The notes under the pieces are model-generated. The model did not search any database and was not told where the DNA came from. It worked only from the letters and a program-made list of their open reading frames with translations. DNA of 64,000 nucleotides from the human T2T-CHM13v2.0 reference genome, Homo sapiens. Shown here in pieces: positions 5,580 through 59,407 of this stretch; within the stretch, counting starts at the first letter, position 1, and each line of letters opens with the position of its first letter. The stretch lies in NCBI RefSeq assembly GCF_009914755.1, contig NC_060930.1, one strand, 5' to 3'. The position numbers and the translations under genes were made by a program.

Positions 5580-6341
<762 letters not shown>

Positions 6342-6346
6342 GACTG

Positions 6347-6760
6347 CAAGAACCCCAAGCCCTGATAAACAGAAGCTTACATCATAGTGGCATTTATTGC
6401 TTAATTAACTAAAAGACCAAGTTGGGTTTGGTGTCTCCAAAGACTCACACTGTACCCATCCTCCTGTTCCCGTTTCCTCAAAGGATTGTCTGTTGTCCCC
6501 TGGCTTGTCACCATATGTGCAAGGTGGCTGCCGCAGCTCCAGGAATTACGTTCCCTCACAACCACATCCATAGGCAGGAGACAATAGAAGGAGGCTTGGG
6601 ACAAGGATTTATCCTCCTGTGGCTCTCTCCTTTTATCAGGAGGAAAACTTTCAAGAAGCAACCTGGAAGACTTACTTAATATCTCATTGACCAGAGCCAG
6701 TGGGTGACTGGTCAAACTTGGCTGTGAGAGAGATTGACAAGTGCATGTCTGAATCTTTTA
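6347..6760 (-). mobile_element. Old MLT1 (J/K/L-like) LTR relic
   Basis: caaggtggctgccgcagctccaggaattac...tctcattgaccagagc motifs typical of antisense MLT1. Confidence 0.55.
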
Positions 6761-34409: not shown

Positions 34410-35215
<806 letters not shown>

Positions 35216-36568
35216 AAACTGGACTAGATTTGACCAGGCTCAATCTGAACTAGTCCATCGATGTCTTGCAGGTGGTGTGATACCAGACTAAATCACTCTG
35301 GCCTGGGGAACTACAATAATGTACTATAGTGCCAGTAAGACAATGGTGTCTATCACAGGAGACTACTCAGTATACTCTGTCTACTCTGCTGCACATAGTA
35401 GACACCGTCGTCTTGCTGGCACCAAATAAGAAGGCCATCCCCTCTGGACTGGGGATGCAGCTCCATGCAGCAAGTGGCAATTGCCATGATCTTCCTGAGA
35501 AGGGGCAGATCTGAAAAGCACAAATGAAAATTTCAAGGTTGGGGGAAGAAACTGGGTGGGAAGGGAGAGAAATGTTTCATTCTTTGGGACTTTAGAGAAG
35601 AAGGGTTCAAGAATCAGGGTCAAGGTTTCGCCCAGGGAACCGCTGCTGGGAGCCCAGCGGTGAGAGGAGCTGGCTCCTGGACGTGGAGGCAGGCTAGTGG
35701 CTGCAGGGAAGGTAACATGAGGCCAGCCCTGGGTCTCTGAACTGAGAGCTGCTGTAAGTTGTTCTCTGTGTCTACATTGGATGTAGATTTGCCAAAGCAA
35801 ATGGAGGTAAGGCAAGGATCGGTGCAGGTCCTCAGGACAAAAGCTCAGAGAGTTGAGCAGCTGCCCTGCCTTGAAGGACCTCCGGGCAGGCCCTCTCTCC
35901 CCCTCTGTAAGTCATTCCTGCTGGTCAGCCCGCTGACTCACAGAAGGGCCCCACAGACTGCAGCTTTTCACCCCTCTTTTTCCTGCACTCCATGTTGTCT
36001 ACTCCCCAGTCCCCACTTGAAACCTAGGTAGGAACATAAGGCCTTTAAAGAAAGACAGATAAATCAAAATCACCTGTATAATTAGGTAGGCTCTGTGCCT
36101 GAGGAAGGGGTGTCAGCCCTTCCCCTGGTGAGTAAAACACACAGACCCATACTTGCACTTTTCAGTAGCCAAAGCAATATTTTTTGCTTAATTTCTGATT
36201 TCAGGTCTTTCATGAGTGGGTGACAGCACCAGACATATGTGGTTCAAATATATCTGGAGATTGAAACATTTGAATATAAAGACTCATCGAAGAACATTTT
36301 TCCCTCATCAACTTCATGAATATCGTATAAATTCCACATGGATAGTTTATGTAGACATTGAGTGTGCTGCCCTCCCGGGCTCACGGGGAAACCAGGGCTT
36401 AGTGTGCCCTGCCTCGGGGCATTGAGCAGCAGATGGGAAGCAGCAGTGACCTGGTGCTGAGAAAACACATCTCCTCCTGGCTTTTGTTTTGCCAAAGTCC
36501 AGACTGATGGAGTGGGATTGCTCTGGATTGTCCGACTGACGGGGGGAAGAGAGGCCAGTGCTTGGGTT

Positions 36569-37390
36569 TGTGTTAGTTTCCAAGGGCTGCATAACAACGC
36601 ACCACACTCTGGGTGTCTTAAAACAACTGCAATGTATTCTGTCATGATTCCGGAGGCTGGAAGTATAGATTAAAGATGTCAGAAGGTCCCTGCTCTCTCT
36701 GAAAATCCCAGGGAAGACCCCTTCCTTGCCTTTTCCGCTTCTGGTGTTTGCTGGCTGTCCTTGGCATTTCCTGGCTTGTAGACACATCCCTTCAATTGCT
36801 ACCTTCGTTGTCACTTGGCTTTCTCTCCTTATGTCTGTTTCTCCTCCTCTTCTCATAAGGATGCCAGTCACACTGGAGTAGAGCCCACCTGCCTGCTGTA
36901 TGACATTTTACCTAATTACATCTGCAAAGACTCAATTTATAAATATGGTTTTATTCTGAAGTTTTAGGGAATACATGAATTCTGAGGGACATGATTGATA
37001 TGGTTTGGCTGTGTCCCTACCCAAATCTCATCTTGAATTGTAGCTCCCATAATCCTCGCATGCCATGGGAGGGACCCAGTGAGAGGTAATTGAATCATGA
37101 CGGTGGGTTTTTCCCATGCTGTTCTTGTGAGAGTGAGTGAGTTCTCACGAGATCTGATGGTTTTATAAGAGGCTTTTCCCCCTTTTGCTCAGCACTTCTC
37201 CTTGCTGCTGCCATGTGAAGAAGAACATGTTTGCTTCCCCTTCCATCATGTTCGTAAGTTTCCTGAGGCCACCCCAGCCATGCTGAACTGTGAGTCAATT
37301 AAAACTTTTTCCTTTATAAATTACACAGTCTTGGGTATGTCTTTATTAGCAGCATGAGAACAGACTAATACAACGATTCAATCCAGTGTT
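36569..37390 (-). mobile_element. MLT1C-like MaLR LTR (THE1 inserted near its end)
   Basis: tgtgttagtttccaagggctgcataac...gccagtcacactggagtagagcccacc...ttcaatcc. Confidence 0.8.
36996..37372 (+). mobile_element. THE1C-like solo LTR
   Basis: TGATATGGTTTGGCTGTGTCC...CAGACTAATACA; TSD atgat/acgat (one CpG change). Confidence 0.92.
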
Positions 37391-37986
37391 AGAGCTAAAG
37401 AGTCAGAAGCAACCCCTTGACAAACGGGGCTTTGAGGATTTAGGTAGAAGACTAAGGGTTTTGTGGTACCACAATCTCCAAGGACTCCAACCGTGTTCCC
37501 CATGGGGCCCTGGAGGTGCCAGGGCCTGGGTTACCATGGCTATCTGATGCACTAGAGGGGCTTGGACACAAAGCACATGACTACCACCTCAGCAAAAATC
37601 CCCGGGCCCAAGTATGGCACCAAAGAAACAAAACCACCCCATAAAGGGACCATGAAATATGTAATGTAGACAGCTCCACCGTGACCACTGTAGATCCATG
37701 ACCAGAGGCTGCTTCTCAACATTGTGAACCATGTGAAACCTCCACATCATTCCGCAAACCTGGAAGAAATAGAGCCCCAGATGGCTGAGATTGAATTTGC
37801 TGTCAACCAGAGTTTATGTGGTTGATTTATAGGAATTCAAGAAATGTGACATTTCTTATACCACATGATGTGGAACAAAATTCATAACAACTACACAAGA
37901 GGAATAGTTCCAGGATTTATGTGTATTCTTGGGCAATTCGTGGCTGGTCAAAATCCATAAAATTGTATGCCATAGATTGTTTTGAC

Positions 37987-39290
37987 AAGGCCTTAACTCT
38001 TTTGGAGAATTGATTGACAGGGCTGAGTTAGGATTTTCTTAAGTGTTGAGTTGGGACAAACCAGTGGATTTTGAAACAACACTTTTTAAAAACCTGTAAA
38101 ATGCTTTAGGACTCCTGGGCAAGCACTGAGTGAGATATTAACAAACATGTCAGAAAACCCAAAGACAACTTTACTTGAGTTTATTGGAGTGATGTTGCTA
38201 TTTATCCCAGGAGAGCATCGTGAAAAGGAAATGACACAGGGGCGACCTTTAAGGCCACTATCTCAGATTCTGAATGTCTCTTAAAAAATGAACTCTTCTC
38301 CAGGAATGCAAGGGTAGCCCCAGTGTCTTTCAACGTGGGCACGCTGTTGAAGTTGCAGGCCAAGCAGCAGGAATTGGTGGTCAGGGAAGCCCAAGGTGGA
38401 AATCAATCAGAAAATAAGCCACTGCAGGTTCCAGGCTGGGGGAAGTGTGAATATTAAGTAGATGGTACCACAGTGACAGATAATTAGGTCCAGAAATGAT
38501 GCCAACTGATGAAATATCTCAGATAGATTAGTTTCCTTAGGACTGTTGTAACAAAGCACTACAAACTGAGCAGCTTATAAAATAGACATTTATTGTCTCA
38601 CAGTTCTAGGGCTACAATTCCAAGATCCAGGTGTCAGCAGAGCCACACTCCCTTGGAGGGTGCTAAGGAAGGCTTCCAGATCTCTCCTGTCTTCAGGTAG
38701 TTCCTTGGCTTGTGGCAGCATAATTCCAACCTTCCCATGGTGTTCTCCCTGCATGTATCTATCTCCAAATTTCTACTTAAGAACGTCCGTCATATTGGAT
38801 GAGAGACCCACCCTAACCCAGTGATTCCCTCTTCTTAACTAATTGTGTCTATATAGATTCTATGTCCAATAAGGTCACATTCTGAGGTACTGGGCATCAG
38901 ACTTCAATGTATGGATTCTGCAGAGACACAGTTTGAGTGTCTTTGCTTAGGACGATCTTTCTCAGACACTGCACCTGACTCTCTGAGAACTTTAGAAATA
39001 GAAGAGGATTTAGGGTCCACTGAAAACCAGAAGACACTTAAGGTCACCTCCCTAAGCATCTACCTAAAAGGTTTTCAGAAAGGATGGGGTCTGTATTTAC
39101 ACTCGGATTCAAGTCTTTGGTACTGAAGGAACTGGCCTGGGAGCTGTAGACCAGGCTTGTGTAAAGCAGGCATGGGCTCATCAACACTGAGTGTCTCGCT
39201 CTACTGCACACTCACCCTCCCTCAACTCTATATATTCCCTCTCCACCCCCATGGCTCTCCTTTCCAACAAAGCAGGTGAAGGAGAGTGGG
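37987..39290 (+). pseudogene. Decayed Gypsy gag homologous to PNMA-family (Ma antigen) capsid proteins; stops, frameshifts and an MLT1B insertion
   Basis: Collinear fragments: KALTLLEN*; PVDFE...L*NALGLLGKH*V; ENPKTTLLEFIG...IPGE; FKATISDSECL; QK*CQLMKYLR; TAPDSLRTLE...GSTEN; VDQACVKQ/MGSSTLSVSLYCTL; PPPWLSFPTKQVKE. Confidence 0.82.
38524..38945 (-). mobile_element. MLT1B-like MaLR LTR inserted in the gag relic
   Basis: attagtttccttaggactgttgtaacaaag...ggtagttccttggcttgtggcagcataa...aaggtcacattctgaggtactggg. Confidence 0.82.
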
Positions 39291-40290
39291 AAGAGCAGGG
39301 CAAGGAAGCTATTACTCACTTCCATGAATACAGGAGCTAGACATGGATGGGTTAACTTCAGTAGTCCATGTCTTGCTTGCTGTGATAGATGGGAATTTAC
39401 CACAGCAACAAAAAGCCCTGACTGCCCTTGTGCAGGCCTTGGGGAGCTTGATGTGGACATCCTTCCATAGGCCTGGAAGCTGAGCATTTAAGGCTGGGTA
39501 CCCTCTGGTCTGGCCCAGATGTGAATCCCACTTGGTCCTTGAAAAAGTGGCCTGGAATCCAAGTGAAGCAACTGCACCGTGGAGGAGGCCTCCAGTGGTT
39601 CCAATGGAGACCAGGAGCCCAGTTTAGTAGGAAGATTCAGAGCAAGCCACTGAAGGTTTACAGAAGCACAATGGCCTTGTTTTTGCTCTTCTGATGGTAG
39701 ACTGCATCCACTGATGAACCGGCAGCTAGACTGGGGAGATGAGGTGTGTTTATGGTGATCCTGGAAAATCAGGGAGGGGCAGGGAGTGGAAACACTCCAA
39801 ATAACACTCCAAATGAGGCTTTGCTGGCTCCTTTAGTTTTCCCTTTTACTCCAAACTACAGAAGTCCTAAAATGGGAAGGAGAATGGTGAGAAGGAAGAG
39901 GGTACTGGCCTAGTTAGAGGACCAGATTTATTTTGGTCAAAAATTGACGTTTTTCCTCTCCTGATGCCTTTAAACCAAACACTGCTCCCCAAAAGCTGGG
40001 GCTTTTTAGGCACTTGACCAGACTAGGAAGATTCCAAGACTGAGATGCACAGTGAGCTTAGGGGTTGCCTCCCCAATCTGGGACTCGGCTCACTTATTGC
40101 AGACCCTGTCTCCCATGCCTGGTCCTGAGGACATCTGGAGAAGATCCCTCACCAACCAACAGGTGGCTTCAGGTGGTGGGGGTGAGCATCCTGGGAAACC
40201 GGGGCCTGGCCCTCTTGGAGGGACATCAGGGTGGGGAATACATTTTCTTTTCAGAGACTCAAAGATCCTTTGGGAGGTGGGAGGGAAAGA

Positions 40291-40820
40291 TGCGAGATCT
40301 CTGTTTGAAAATATCAGTTTGCGTTTAGGTCTTGCTGCTACAGTACGTTTTCCTCTCCTCCCTCCCAGAAGATAGCCTGGCCTTTGTGTTCCCAGCCAGC
40401 ATGAGGGACGCTTTGTGTGGCTCTGCAGGAAGTATCCGTTGCCAGGCACCCAGAAGACACCCCTCCTCCTGGCTTTTGTTTTGCCTAGGCCTGGGCTGTT
40501 GGAGGGGAATTGTGCTGCCTGAGAGGGACAGAGAATGAGTGAGTGCTCAGGGTTGAAAAGACCCACGCAGCTGTAGGGGAGGGAGGTTTTCAAGAGCTCT
40601 CCTCTGGAACTAAGAAGGGAATGGGGCTTCTGTGATTTCCACACCTAGAGAAGCAACGCTTTCCCCAACATATCTTGAGTGTTTGGGGGTGGAAGATGGC
40701 AGAATCACGGAAGATTGCATTCCGGGTTCATGCAGAATGGCTGCCCCTCCACTCCTCACCCAGTCCTAGTAGAAATTAGAAAAGGAAGCCTTAAGCTGGC
40801 CCCCTCACACACAGGGGTGG
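40291..40820 (+). mobile_element. 3' LTR of the MamGyp-like element (3' end not resolved, probably truncated by L1-like DNA)
   Basis: Begins with TG after the PPT; aligns by eye with both halves of the 5' LTR (ggaag...agaagacac...ctcctcctggcttttgttttgcc; gggcttctgtgatttccaca...caacgctttcccca). Confidence 0.7.
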
Positions 40821-40829
40821 GTGAGCGGA

Positions 40830-42060
40830 CTGAAGCCTAGATTTCTGTTCCCACTGAATCCTTCACTTACACAAACCTCATCAGCCCACTTCTCTCCACC
40901 TAACTCATTGGAGTTATTTTTTATTCTTCTGTGGGATTTTTCAACATGCCTCCAGTTCTCACTATACCACCTCCTGACTTCTATAACTAAATTTATTTTT
41001 ATATTCTCAATGTTTATAGCCTTTATGGGTTTAGTCTCTCTAGCTCTAATTAATTTATTCATGTCATGTATATATATTTATTTTTAAAACCAGGATTCAC
41101 CATGCAGCATTTACAATAGTATGATTATAAATCTAGGATTCACTGCAGAACTAAAGTAACGCTGTTGGATAAATAAGGAAATGTACTCACTTGTGACTAA
41201 AAGCTGTGACACTAGAAGAAAAAATATGTCCAAATTTTAAAGTCAACAATATATTTTCTTATACTATATCAATTGCACAAAATTATGCCACATTTTATAA
41301 TAGATTGCTTTATATTTGAACCCTGACTTTCTTTTAGATAAGTTTGTTTTTCTTATAGTTTCTAATTGCCTTTGTTTTTTCCTAGGAGAAGCATAGGGCT
41401 TTACCTTTTCACTAATGTCATTTAGCTTCTTAGTGATATTTGTCAAGGTGAATCCACTGATCTTTGACTTCTTGTTTAATTTGAGCAGGTTGCTTTTTAG
41501 ATTTGCTGCATAATCTTCATGGGTTTGTCTCCCCTTTCTTGTTCTTATACCTTCTTCTTTGGATTCATTTTAAGTTTTGATGAAGTAGATGCTCAATACT
41601 TTTTTAGAAGAGTGATTGGTAGAAGACCTTCTGAGCTATGCATGTCTGAGAATACCTTTATATTGTCTTCATGTTTGAGTAATGATGTGGGTTGGCATAT
41701 AACTCTAAGTTGAAAATAACTTTTCCTCAGAACTTTGAAACCAAGCATCTAGCCATAAGGACAGGAAATTGGATGCCCACCTGATTTTCATTCCTTTTAG
41801 AAAAATGATATACCTTCCCTGCTCTGACTCTCAAAATCTCTTAAGCCATTTTATTTATCTATGGTATTCTGAAATTTCATATCTTGATATTAATCTTTCC
41901 CCATCTACTAATCTTTCTCAATACGTTTCAATATGAGTTGTTAGATTTTTCTTTACACTTTAGAAATGTTATTGTATAATTTAATTTACTATTTTATCTC
42001 CTTTATTTTCTTATTTTCTATTTCTGGAACTCCCCTTGAACAGATTTTGGGTTGATCCTC
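40830..42060 (-). mobile_element. Highly decayed L1M/HAL1-like sequence
   Basis: T-rich, with ttgcatgtctgagaatacctttatattg...ttgaaaataacttttcctcagaactttgaa-like motifs. Confidence 0.5.
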
Positions 42061-52256: not shown

Positions 52257-52410
52257 AAATGAGAATAATAATAATCTTTATTAGTTTGTGGTTCAAAATC
52301 TTTTTCCTTTAGAGTTTTCGAAATAAGCAAGGTATGGGGACTGCAATAGATCATTTAAAGATCTTGAAGGAGATTATGGGGTTTTTGTTATTCTGTCAGA
52401 TTAATATTCC

Positions 52411-52773
52411 TGATATGGTTTAGCTGTGTCCCTGCCCAAATCTCATCTTGAATTGTAGCTCCCATAATTCCCAAATGTTGTGGAAGGGATGCGGTAGGGG
52501 GTAATTGTATCATGGGAGCAGGTATTTCCCATACTTTTCTCATGATAGTGAATAAGTCTCATGAGAACTGATGGTTTTATAAAAGGGAGGTCCCTGGCAC
52601 ATGTCCTCTTGCCTGCCACCATTAAGACATGACTTTGCTCCTCATTCGCCTTCTGCCATGATTGTGAGGCTTCCCCAGCCACGTGGAACTGTGAGTCCAT
52701 TAAACCTCTTTCCTTTATAAATTACCCAGTCTTGGGTATGTCTTTATTAGCAGTGTGAGAACACACTAATACA
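52411..52773 (+). mobile_element. THE1 (B/C-like) solo LTR
   Basis: TGATATGGTTTAGCTGTGTCC...CACTAATACA. Confidence 0.9.
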
Positions 52774-56007: not shown

Positions 56008-56350
56008 TATGTTAGTCCATTTTCATGGTGCTGATAAAGACATACCTGAGACTGGGCAACTTACAAAAGAAAGAGGTTTATTGGACTTACAGTTCCATAT
56101 GGCTGGGGAGGCCTCACAATTATGATGGAAGGTGAAAGTCATGTCTCTCACGGTGGCAGACAAGAGAAAAGGCTTGTGCAGGGAAACTCCCCTTTTTCAA
56201 ACCATCAGATCTCGTGAGACTTACTCAATATCACGGGAACAGCACAGGAAAGACCCACCCCCATGACTGAATCACCTCCCACTGGGTTCCTCCCACAACA
56301 TGTGGGAATTTAAGATGAGATTTGGGTGGGGACACAGCCAAACCATATCA
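56008..56350 (-). mobile_element. THE1B solo LTR
   Basis: ...ttagtccattttcatg-gctgataaagacatacc...cagccaaaccatatca, TSD GAGAG. Confidence 0.92.
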
Positions 56351-56957
56351 GAGAGGCAGATGGAAAGAGCAGAAGAGAGCTGGTGAAAGGGAGAATTAAA
56401 GAGTTCTTCAATCCTCTTCCTTTGTATGACCTCTGACTACTTAAATGAATTTTATATACGTGTGTGTGTGTGTGTGTGTCACAATGCTTAGTGCAATGAG
56501 CATTATATGTGTTTTCTGTGATAAGACTAATATACCGCACTCATAATTATATAATGGAAGAAAATGAAAAGAAGAACACTAATATTTGATGTCTGGCATC
56601 CATTATCTCATTGGCTTCTAACAAACTACCTTTTCACCCTCACTTTAAAGGACAGAAACATGAGTATGTAAAGAGCTATTTAAGGCCACAGGGTCTGTGA
56701 AGGAGGAAAGCCTACTGAAACCAAAGACATAGTCTTTCAGCTGCACCACACTACTTCAGTGCTGAGGCTATCCAAAACATAGCAAGTACAAAATTGCTGA
56801 TGTGTAGGTTTAGGCTATTAATAGCGTATGATTTTTAAAATTTCGTACAGAATATTAACTATCCCAATTGTATTTGACTCAGGCCAATGGCAAAACGAAT
56901 GTGCATCCTGGTCCCAGAATCAGAATTGACCATGTGTCAATTACTGATAAGAAGCTT

Positions 56958-58330: not shown

Positions 58331-59407
58331 TGACTGAGAATGTAAAAAGCAACCCTGAGAGCAGGAAGCTGGCCCTGTCCCATCAATTAGGTCTTGGCTT
58401 TGCGAGTACTCACGGATGGTACTCATGGCTAAGTTTTGTCCTCTTCTGTTGAACAAAAACAATTTCACAGAACATTGACACTAGACATAGACATCATTCT
58501 GTGACCAAGACGGATCAGGACAATAACAAGGCCACTCTACTGTAATCATGCCTGAACACCGACAAAACCAGAAACGTTCTCCAAACCACAAAAATGACCA
58601 AATCTCTCCCTAACCTGAAAGTGAAAGAATATCTCCCTAAGCTAAGTGACAACTTCTTTACCAATTACAGCTTTGACATCATTCTATTCTCTCTTTCTTG
58701 ATAAGGTCACTAGGATACCTGTTATACACTGAATTCTGTCCCTTCCCCTCATCCTCAAGTTTATATATTGAAGTCCTAACCCTCAGGACTGCAGAATGTG
58801 ACCTTGTTTCAAAATAGAGTCATTGCACCAGAAATAGTTAAGTTGAGATGGGTTCGTCTATAGGATGGGTCCCTAAATCGGTATGGCTGGTGTCCATAAT
58901 TATAGGGAGGGTAAATTTGGACACAGACATATACGCACAGAAAGAACACCATGTGAAGGCTGGAGTTATGCTACACAAACCAAGGAACTACCAGAAGCCG
59001 GGAGAGAGGCTTAGGATGGATATTCTCCTACCACTTTCAGAGGCATGGCCCTGCCCACACCTTGATCTCGGGCTTCCAGCCTCCAGAACTCTAAGAGAAT
59101 AAATCTCTGTTGTTGAAGCCACTCAGTTTGTAGTACTTTGTTACAGCAGCCCTGAGAAACTAATACATACCCAATCATGAGACCAACCTTGGGGAAAAAT
59201 CTTACTTGTTTGAACTCTCCCCAGAATCACCTAACACAAGCCAAAATCATGTAAGTCCTCTCACACCCTCTACTGACATGCCCCACAGTTCCCCATACAC
59301 AGCATGGTATGGTATTTCACTTCTCCTTTGTTATGAAAAGTCAATAAAACCACCCTTGTTTAGTTACCAGTGTGCTCCCGGTAGCCTTTGGCTAGAGGGC
59401 ATTGACA
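58331..59407 (+). mobile_element. MER31-like ERV1 LTR interrupted by MLT1B
   Basis: tctgtgaccaagacggatcaggacaa...ccaaaccacaaaaatgacc; ends ggctagagggcattgaca. Confidence 0.6.
58720..59167 (+). mobile_element. MLT1B-like MaLR LTR
   Basis: tgttat...gaagtcctaacc...agtactttgttacagcagccctgagaaactaataca. Confidence 0.82.

What the first reader, a model, noticed from the sequence alone, without database searches (positions are those of the whole stretch)
36238..40820. Two-LTR ancient mammalian Gypsy (MamGyp-like) provirus hidden under younger insertions
Seen in the sequence: two same-orientation diverged repeats (36238-37895 and 40291-about 40820) that align in several blocks, a PBS-like motif just after the first, a purine tract immediately before the TG of the second, and gag remnants between them. 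From established knowledge: Gypsy retrotransposons are long extinct in placental mammals and survive mostly as solo LTRs or as domesticated genes (PNMA, RTL/SIRH, ARC). Inference: this is one integrated LTR-internal-LTR copy, broken up by MLT1C, THE1C and MLT1B so that automated annotation would list only disconnected fragments. Such a copy allows LTR-LTR dating and reconstruction of the ancestral element.
Basis: partly seen in the sequence, partly recalled or inferred. Interest (0 to 1): 0.88.

Follow-up and report, generated by a model that had tools for sequence, protein, structure and literature searches.

The report
Decayed ancient Gypsy retrotransposon copy
This is a thoroughly broken, very old copy of a known mammalian Gypsy-type jumping gene, keeping scraps of its capsid gene and pieces of its end repeats; it is an ordinary genomic fossil.

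Summary

**LTR similarity.** The two proposed LTRs are directly alike in only one block, 36436-36525 vs 40428-40517 (66/90 identical). No shuffle reached its score. The flanks do not exceed shuffled controls.

**Same family.** Both stretches match the LTR of a third copy at chr2:30.03 Mb. The two halves of the first LTR keep the chr2 spacing once 36569-37390 is removed, so that insertion really does split an older unit.

**Gag remnants.** The sequence between the LTRs holds remnants homologous to human PNMA genes: 37976-38339, and more weakly 39001-39171. A paper states that the PNMA2 reading frame is the gag of MamGyp-int. That supports the MamGyp assignment indirectly.

**Not found.**
- No pol domain was found.
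- No 3' end of the second LTR and no target-site duplication could be established.
- The PBS-like stretch matches no sampled tRNA specifically.
- The purine tract is a common kind of sequence in this window.
- 39442-40271 is unassigned.

**Verdict.** The most likely reading is one provirus with pol and part of the 3' LTR lost (about 0.6). The main rival is two separate fragments of the same family. MamGyp-int and its LTRs are curated families, so interest is low.

The parts
36238..36568 (+). First half of the 5' LTR.
   Evidence: nhmmer to the chr2 copy: 36408-36528, E 1e-7. Block shared with the second LTR. The upstream part is not above shuffles: 297/300 and 66/300 shuffles reach the score.
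36569..37389 (+). Younger MaLR-type (MLT1-like) LTR insertion. It carries a nested THE1-like LTR at 36996-37372, flanked by ATGAT/ACGAT.
   Evidence: Both are repeated elsewhere in the window and in fetched loci, E down to 5e-58. Flanks were read. With this stretch removed, the spacing between the two chr2-matching blocks is 343 nt, against 336 nt in chr2. Family names are recalled.
37390..37897 (+). Second half of the 5' LTR, ending ...ACA. 37693-37897 is backed by homology. 37391-37692 aligns with neither other LTR.
   Evidence: nhmmer to chr2: 37693-37896, E 2e-6. The middle part is not above shuffles: 121/300 and 18/300 reach the score. The LTR-end motif is shared with the chr2 and chr1 copies.
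37898..37975 (+). Leader with a PBS-like stretch.
   Evidence: Alignment of five copies. In chr2 the LTR's CA is followed by TGG. tRNA identity is inconclusive.
37976..38339 (+). Gag remnant, N-terminal (PNMA_N-like) part, with many stop codons.
   Evidence: CDS of the chr8 PNMA gene against 37898-38523: SW 70 vs 29.3 +/- 3.6, 0/200 shuffles reach it. nhmmer E 6e-8. tblastn gives only E 0.15. Stops are seen.
38524..38945 (+). Second younger MLT1-like LTR insertion, inside gag.
   Evidence: nhmmer: 38528-38928 matches 36574-36991, window 58759-59163 and five fetched loci.
38967..39441 (+). Gag remnant, C-terminal part.
   Evidence: CDS of the chr14:87.4 Mb PNMA gene, aa 249-314, matches 38967-39172 with E 1.6e-5. 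SW 50 vs 34 +/- 4.3, 0/200. 39190-39441 matches the chr1 copy: SW 45 vs 26.1 +/- 3.5, 0/300, at collinear spacing of 744 vs 765 nt.
39442..40271 (.). Unassigned sequence. No homology to any copy, PNMA locus or Pfam family.
40272..40290 (+). Purine tract (18/19 purines) directly before TG.
   Evidence: Weak evidence: 12 such tract+TG windows occur in the window.
40291..40750 (+). Second LTR of the same family, partial. 40426-40748 is backed by homology. The start at 40291 is only weakly supported and no 3' end was found.
   Evidence: nhmmer to the chr2 LTR: 40426-40724, E 2e-14. SW 44 vs 25.7 +/- 3.7, 0/300. Start region vs chr2: 8/300 shuffles reach the score. Sequence beyond 40750 is not above shuffles: 284/300 and 14/300. 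The LTR-end motif is not found there.

Best explanation
The stretch is a dead, neutrally decaying copy of an ancient Ty3/Gypsy LTR retrotransposon whose gag is the kind that gave rise to the PNMA genes (MamGyp type).

Most likely it is one integration event with this layout:
- a 5' LTR of about 840 nt (about 36238-37897), later split by an MLT1-like LTR that itself received a THE1-like LTR;
- a short leader;
- a gag remnant (37976-39441), split by a second MLT1-like LTR;
- about 830 nt of unassigned sequence;
- a purine tract;
- the first 460 nt or so of the 3' LTR (about 40291-40750).

Pol and the rest of the 3' LTR were lost by deletion and decay. It has no function now.

Shown: family membership of both LTR pieces, the split by younger repeats, gag homology and the shared orientation.
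Inferred: that the two LTR pieces come from the same insertion.
For: - One significant LTR-LTR block, same orientation, 3992 nt apart.
- Both LTR pieces match the chr2 LTR. The two halves of the first LTR keep the chr2 spacing: block start to LTR end is 668 nt after excision, against 665 nt in chr2.
- Gag homology to PNMA genes on the same strand, in gene order, starting 79 nt after the LTR end.
- The same arrangement (LTR end, leader, PNMA_N remnant) is seen in the chr2 and chr1 copies.
- In the region all three LTRs share, the two window LTRs are each other's closest relative: 95/144 = 66%, against 58% and 57.5% to chr2.
- The family is sparse at this similarity. A whole-genome search with the block found only these two copies and chr2. 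Of 22 further motif-bearing loci, 2 showed weak extended similarity. A second, independent same-family piece 2.5 kb downstream in the same orientation would therefore be a coincidence (inference).
- PNMA2's reading frame is described as the gag of MamGyp-int (bioRxiv 10.1101/2023.02.09.527862, passage read).
Against: - Only 90-144 nt of the two LTRs align with each other.
- The middle of the first LTR matches neither other LTR. The second LTR beyond 40750 matches neither other LTR.
- No pol: 0 Pfam families in six frames, and 0 retroelement families in 75 ORF pieces.
- 39442-40271 is unassigned.
- No LTR-end motif downstream of the second LTR, and no target-site duplication.
- The 66% vs 58% difference rests on about 150 sites and is not statistically firm.
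- A G-rich stretch weakly like the 'purine tract' also precedes the chr2 LTR (8/300 shuffles reach the score). The tract may therefore lie inside the LTR rather than be a PPT.
- Direct comparison with the MamGypLTR and MamGyp-int library sequences was not possible.
Confidence: 0.6

Rival explanations
1. Two separate fragments of the same family lie side by side. One is a truncated element (5' LTR plus gag). The other is an unrelated solo or truncated LTR, inserted nearby or brought near by deletion.
For: - Direct LTR-LTR similarity is limited to one block.
- Mosaic pattern: each LTR matches chr2 where the other does not.
- About 830 nt of unassigned sequence lies between gag and the second LTR.
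- No 3' end and no duplication were found.
- The LTR-end motif count genome-wide is 440, against 265 for the reversed control. The family therefore has more copies than pairwise searches reveal.
Against: - The two pieces have the same orientation and lie 2.5 kb apart, in a family with few detectable copies.
- The two window LTRs are nearest to each other in the shared region.
Confidence: 0.28
2. It is an old pseudogene or duplicate of a PNMA gene, not a retrotransposon copy. On this reading the 'LTRs' are unrelated repeats.
For: The coding-type similarity is to PNMA genes, and no pol is present.
Against: - Non-coding sequence upstream of gag (LTR end and leader) is shared with the chr2 and chr1 copies.
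- The same LTR family recurs downstream.
- No single PNMA gene is markedly closer: identities are 57-58% for the three genes whose match was at or near the top of the shuffles.
Confidence: 0.05
3. The LTR-LTR similarity is a chance or low-complexity match, and there is no element.
For: The core is T-rich and lacks CpG. The flanks are at the level of shuffles.
Against: - 0/200 shuffles reach the block score.
- The 23-mer gives 25 genome matches at up to 3 mismatches, against 2 for the reversed control.
- There are independent matches to chr2, down to E 2e-14.
Confidence: 0.02

Closest known systems
MamGyp-int with MamGypLTR1a-d / 2 / 2b / 2c (Repbase/Dfam ancient mammalian Ty3/Gypsy family)
   Same: - It is an LTR element whose gag is homologous to PNMA genes, and PNMA2's ORF is described as MamGyp-int gag (bioRxiv 10.1101/2023.02.09.527862, passage read).
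- It is ancient and older than MaLR insertions.
- It is dispersed and heavily decayed.
- Internal part plus associated LTRs is the curated structure (PMC5753468, Table 4 passage).
   Different: No difference was shown. This copy lacks pol and part of its second LTR.
PNMA gene family (domesticated gag: the chr8, chr14, chr19 and chrX genes found)
   Same: Nucleotide-level homology to the N-terminal domain and to part of the C-terminal capsid region. Order and strand are the same.
   Different: - The PNMA genes have open frames of 187-688 aa without stops. The window copy is full of stops and reaches only E 0.15 by tblastn.
- It is flanked by LTR sequence.
- It is a relic, not a gene.
Broken sister copies at chr2:30.03 Mb, chr1:73.62 Mb, chrX:113.31 Mb and chr17:59.09 Mb
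   Same: PNMA_N remnant at the collinear place in all four. The LTR end and leader are shared with chr2 and chr1.
   Different: No second same-family LTR piece was detected in any of the four within the 14-20 kb fetched. The window copy has the most decayed gag of the five.
Sushi-ichi-derived RTL/SIRH genes (PEG10, RTL1)
   Same: Also Ty3/Gypsy-derived gag in mammals (PMC3789554, abstract).
   Different: They belong to a different lineage. No comparison was run here. The window's similarity is to PNMA.

Membership tests
LTR-retrotransposon provirus (LTR-internal-LTR) | Two direct repeats of one LTR family flanking the internal part | tested here: met
   Both pieces match the chr2 LTR (E 1e-7 / 2e-6 and 2e-14) and share one block with each other. 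Only 90-144 nt align directly.
LTR-retrotransposon provirus (LTR-internal-LTR) | Defined TG...CA termini of both LTRs | tested here: inconclusive
   The first LTR ends ...ACA at 37897, aligned with the chr2 LTR end. TG at 40291 aligns weakly with the chr2 start (8/300 shuffles reach the score). The start of the first LTR and the end of the second were not found.
LTR-retrotransposon provirus (LTR-internal-LTR) | Target-site duplication at the outer ends | tested here: inconclusive
   By eye, the flanks of the candidate ends do not match. The outer ends themselves are not established.
LTR-retrotransposon provirus (LTR-internal-LTR) | Primer-binding site complementary to a tRNA 3' end | tested here: inconclusive
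   15 distinct tRNA 3' ends from 20 genes were scored against 5 copies. The best sums are 48/90 (Thr), 47/90 (Gln) and 47/90 (Thr), so none stands out. Only 7 isotypes were sampled.
LTR-retrotransposon provirus (LTR-internal-LTR) | Polypurine tract before the 3' LTR | tested here: met
   40272-40290 has 18/19 purines followed by TG. The sequence type is common: 12 tract+TG windows in 64 kb.
Ty3/Gypsy (Metaviridae-type) element | Pol with protease, RT, RNase H and integrase, in that order | tested here: not met
   0 Pfam families at E up to 10 in six frames of 37898-40293. 0 retroelement families in 75 ORF pieces. None in the chr2 and chr1 copies either. Pol is absent from this copy, so superfamily assignment rests on gag alone.
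MamGyp (MamGyp-int + MamGypLTR) | Gag homologous to PNMA proteins | tested here: met
   for the window. for sister copies.
MamGyp (MamGyp-int + MamGypLTR) | Nucleotide match to the curated MamGyp-int and MamGypLTR models | not testable with these tools
   No Dfam or Repbase library was at hand. Rfam and Pfam do not hold them.

The most novel reading that the evidence does not exclude
This may be one of the few human MamGyp copies that still keeps pieces of both LTRs around gag. It is the only one of the five gag-bearing copies examined here that does. If so, it gives a direct LTR-LTR date for late Gypsy activity in the stem lineage of placental mammals. The K80 distance is 0.34 over 90 sites and 0.47 over 144 sites. 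With a recalled neutral rate of about 2.2e-9 per site per year, that gives very roughly 75-105 million years.
Probability: 0.55. Interest if true: 0.25.

Novelty: already known. Interest (0 to 1): 0.14.

Why it matters
It matters little. The copy is a neutral relic of a curated repeat family in the best-annotated genome. It could serve as one data point for dating the end of Gypsy activity in early placental mammals, and as an example of PNMA-type gag still attached to its LTR. But too few sites align for a firm date, and the sister copies on chr1, chr2 and chr17 preserve gag better.

Tried and rejected
**Searches that found nothing useful**
- Pfam on stop-to-stop ORF pieces: I sent 75 of the 126 pieces listed, those lying in 37350-40644. 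None hit a retroelement family. 5 of 75 had weak unrelated hits, E 0.057-2.8.
- Pfam on six frames read through with X: 0 families.
- Whole-genome DNA searches with 37391-38523 and with the chr2 LTR found only self and the known block. This search is too insensitive for repeats this old.
- 22 loci carrying the 23-mer at 3 mismatches: only 2 showed weak extended similarity.
- 39442-40290 was searched against four sister copies, 15 PNMA loci and 22 other loci. The only hit was one out-of-order match, E 0.009.

**Tests that were inconclusive**
- End of the second LTR: two candidates were seen, about 41057-41074 (placed there by MAFFT, near the length predicted from chr2) and 41234-41284 (14/300 shuffles reach its score). 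Neither is significant. The LTR-end motif has no match there.
- tRNA primer: my lead that the PBS fits tRNA-Gln was tested and not borne out. Gln scores 47/90, Thr 48/90 and 47/90, Cys 45/90.

**Method caution**
- nhmmer E-values from long single-sequence queries looked too generous; for example, 2.6 bits gave E 0.0016. I therefore rechecked the key matches with shuffles.
- In one search, two of four PNMA genes gave no signal above shuffles for the C-terminal part, and one of four gave none for the N-terminal part.

**Rows left out**
- One search used 13 of the 15 PNMA loci. One was dropped as an identical duplicate. One was dropped because its longest frame was not the PNMA frame.
Full report
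**The observation.**

The window is human chr6 (T2T). I read 35800-41400 and compared the two proposed LTRs.
- They share one ungapped block, 36436-36525 vs 40428-40517, with 66/90 identical.
- Its Smith-Waterman score is 42. 200 dinucleotide shuffles gave mean 12.2, sd 1.4 and maximum 19.
- A 23-mer inside it is exact in both copies and unique in the window.
- A scan of all diagonals between offsets 2000 and 5999 found only this diagonal, one stray window, and a match between two MLT1-like repeats.
- Sequence before and after the block is at the level of shuffles: z 1.4, 2.3 and 0.5.

So 'several blocks' is not confirmed. There is one block.

**A third copy shows that both pieces belong to one LTR family.**

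The window's own genome could be searched.
- The block region found only itself, its partner and chr2:30.03 Mb.
- The 23-mer at up to 3 mismatches has 25 genome matches, against 2 for the reversed control.
- Of the 22 further loci, 2 showed weak extended similarity.

Against the reverse-complemented chr2 locus, nhmmer gave four matches:
- 36408-36528 to 5615-5718 (E 1e-7);
- 37693-37896 to 6054-6279 (E 2e-6);
- 37986-38271 to 6382-6676 (E 7.5e-5);
- 40426-40724 to 5633-5931 (E 2e-14).

After removing 36569-37390, the gap between the first two matches is 343 nt, against 336 nt in chr2. The younger insertion therefore does split one older unit.

That insertion is an MLT1-like LTR carrying a THE1-like LTR (36996-37372, flanked by ATGAT/ACGAT). 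38524-38945 is a second MLT1-like LTR. All three have other copies in the window and in fetched loci. The family names are recalled from the look of their ends.

**The internal part is PNMA-type gag.**

Pfam found no family in the window itself:
- 0 retroelement families in 75 ORF pieces;
- 0 families in six frames read through with X.

The sister copies gave the lead:
- The chr2 copy gave a weak PNMA_N hit, about 100 nt after its LTR end (E 0.12).
- A genome search with PF20846 returned 15 intact PNMA genes. It also returned three broken copies, on chr1, chrX and chr17.
- tblastn with the PNMA frames hit the collinear place in chr1 (E 1.6e-6), chr17 (7e-7), chr2 (1.4e-6) and chrX (5e-4). In the window it reached only E 0.15.

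At nucleotide level the window is clearer:
- The chr8 PNMA gene's CDS matches 37984-38328 (E 6e-8).
- The chr14:87.4 Mb gene's codons 249-314 match 38967-39172 (E 1.6e-5).
- Shuffle controls agree: 70 vs 29.3 +/- 3.6 (0/200) and 50 vs 34 +/- 4.3 (0/200).
- Of the four genes tested, one gave no N-terminal signal and two gave no C-terminal signal above shuffles.
- 39190-39441 matches the chr1 copy at collinear spacing: 45 vs 26.1 +/- 3.5, 0/300.

A preprint states that the PNMA2 frame is the gag-derived part of a MamGyp-int element (10.1101/2023.02.09.527862, passages read). The MamGyp label is therefore supported indirectly.

**What is missing.**

- There is no pol remnant.
- 39442-40271 matches nothing.
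- The middle of the first LTR (37391-37692) aligns with neither other LTR. The second LTR beyond 40750 aligns with neither other LTR.
- No LTR-end motif lies downstream of the second LTR. I saw no target-site duplication.
- The purine tract is as described, but such tracts followed by TG are common here.
- A weakly similar G-rich stretch also precedes the chr2 LTR.
- The PBS-like stretch is positionally conserved but fits tRNA-Gln no better than tRNA-Thr or tRNA-Cys.

**One provirus or two fragments.**

In favour of one provirus:
- The pieces share orientation and lie close together, in a family with few detectable copies.
- Gag follows the first LTR directly.
- In the shared region the two window LTRs are closest to each other: 66%, against 58% and 57.5%.

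Against:
- The alignment pattern is mosaic.
- There is an unassigned stretch before the second LTR.
- The outer ends are missing.

I put one provirus with large losses at about 0.6 and two separate fragments at about 0.28.

**Known or new.**

Repbase lists MamGyp-int with its associated LTRs MamGypLTR1a-d, 2, 2b and 2c (PMC5753468, Table 4 passage). So LTR-plus-internal copies are what the family was built from. I found no paper on this locus. Two full-text searches returned papers that only use the family names. Supplements were not examined.

The K80 distance between the LTR pieces is 0.34 (90 sites) to 0.47 (144 sites). With a recalled neutral rate, that means very roughly 75-105 million years. 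This is an ordinary, already-known kind of relic.

Noticed in passing
L032 8322-9502 (chr2:30029321-30030501, minus strand): This is a sister copy with an LTR of about 810 nt, a TGG directly after the LTR's CA, and a PNMA_N remnant. An Alu-like insertion follows straight after. No second LTR was found within the 8.7 kb fetched downstream.
   Followed up: partly
L054 4289-4516 (chr1:73624289-73624516): This is a broken PNMA_N-bearing copy with two stops. It still scores 28.9 bits, above the Pfam cut-off, in the genome search. Read through in one frame it scores 23.7 bits. It is the best-preserved of the broken copies seen.
   Followed up: partly
window 52409-52773 (+), 56010-56351 (-), 58759-59166 (-): There are two further THE1-like LTRs and one MLT1-like LTR in the window. 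The MLT1-like copy ends about 140 nt before the RefSeq silencer at 59309-59378.
   Followed up: no
window 35001-35067: This short stretch is repeated in both orientations in all four other fetched loci. It is probably the edge of a common SINE.
   Followed up: no
window 37429-37506: There is a weak self-complementary stretch in the unalignable middle of the first LTR (nhmmer E 0.063).
   Followed up: no
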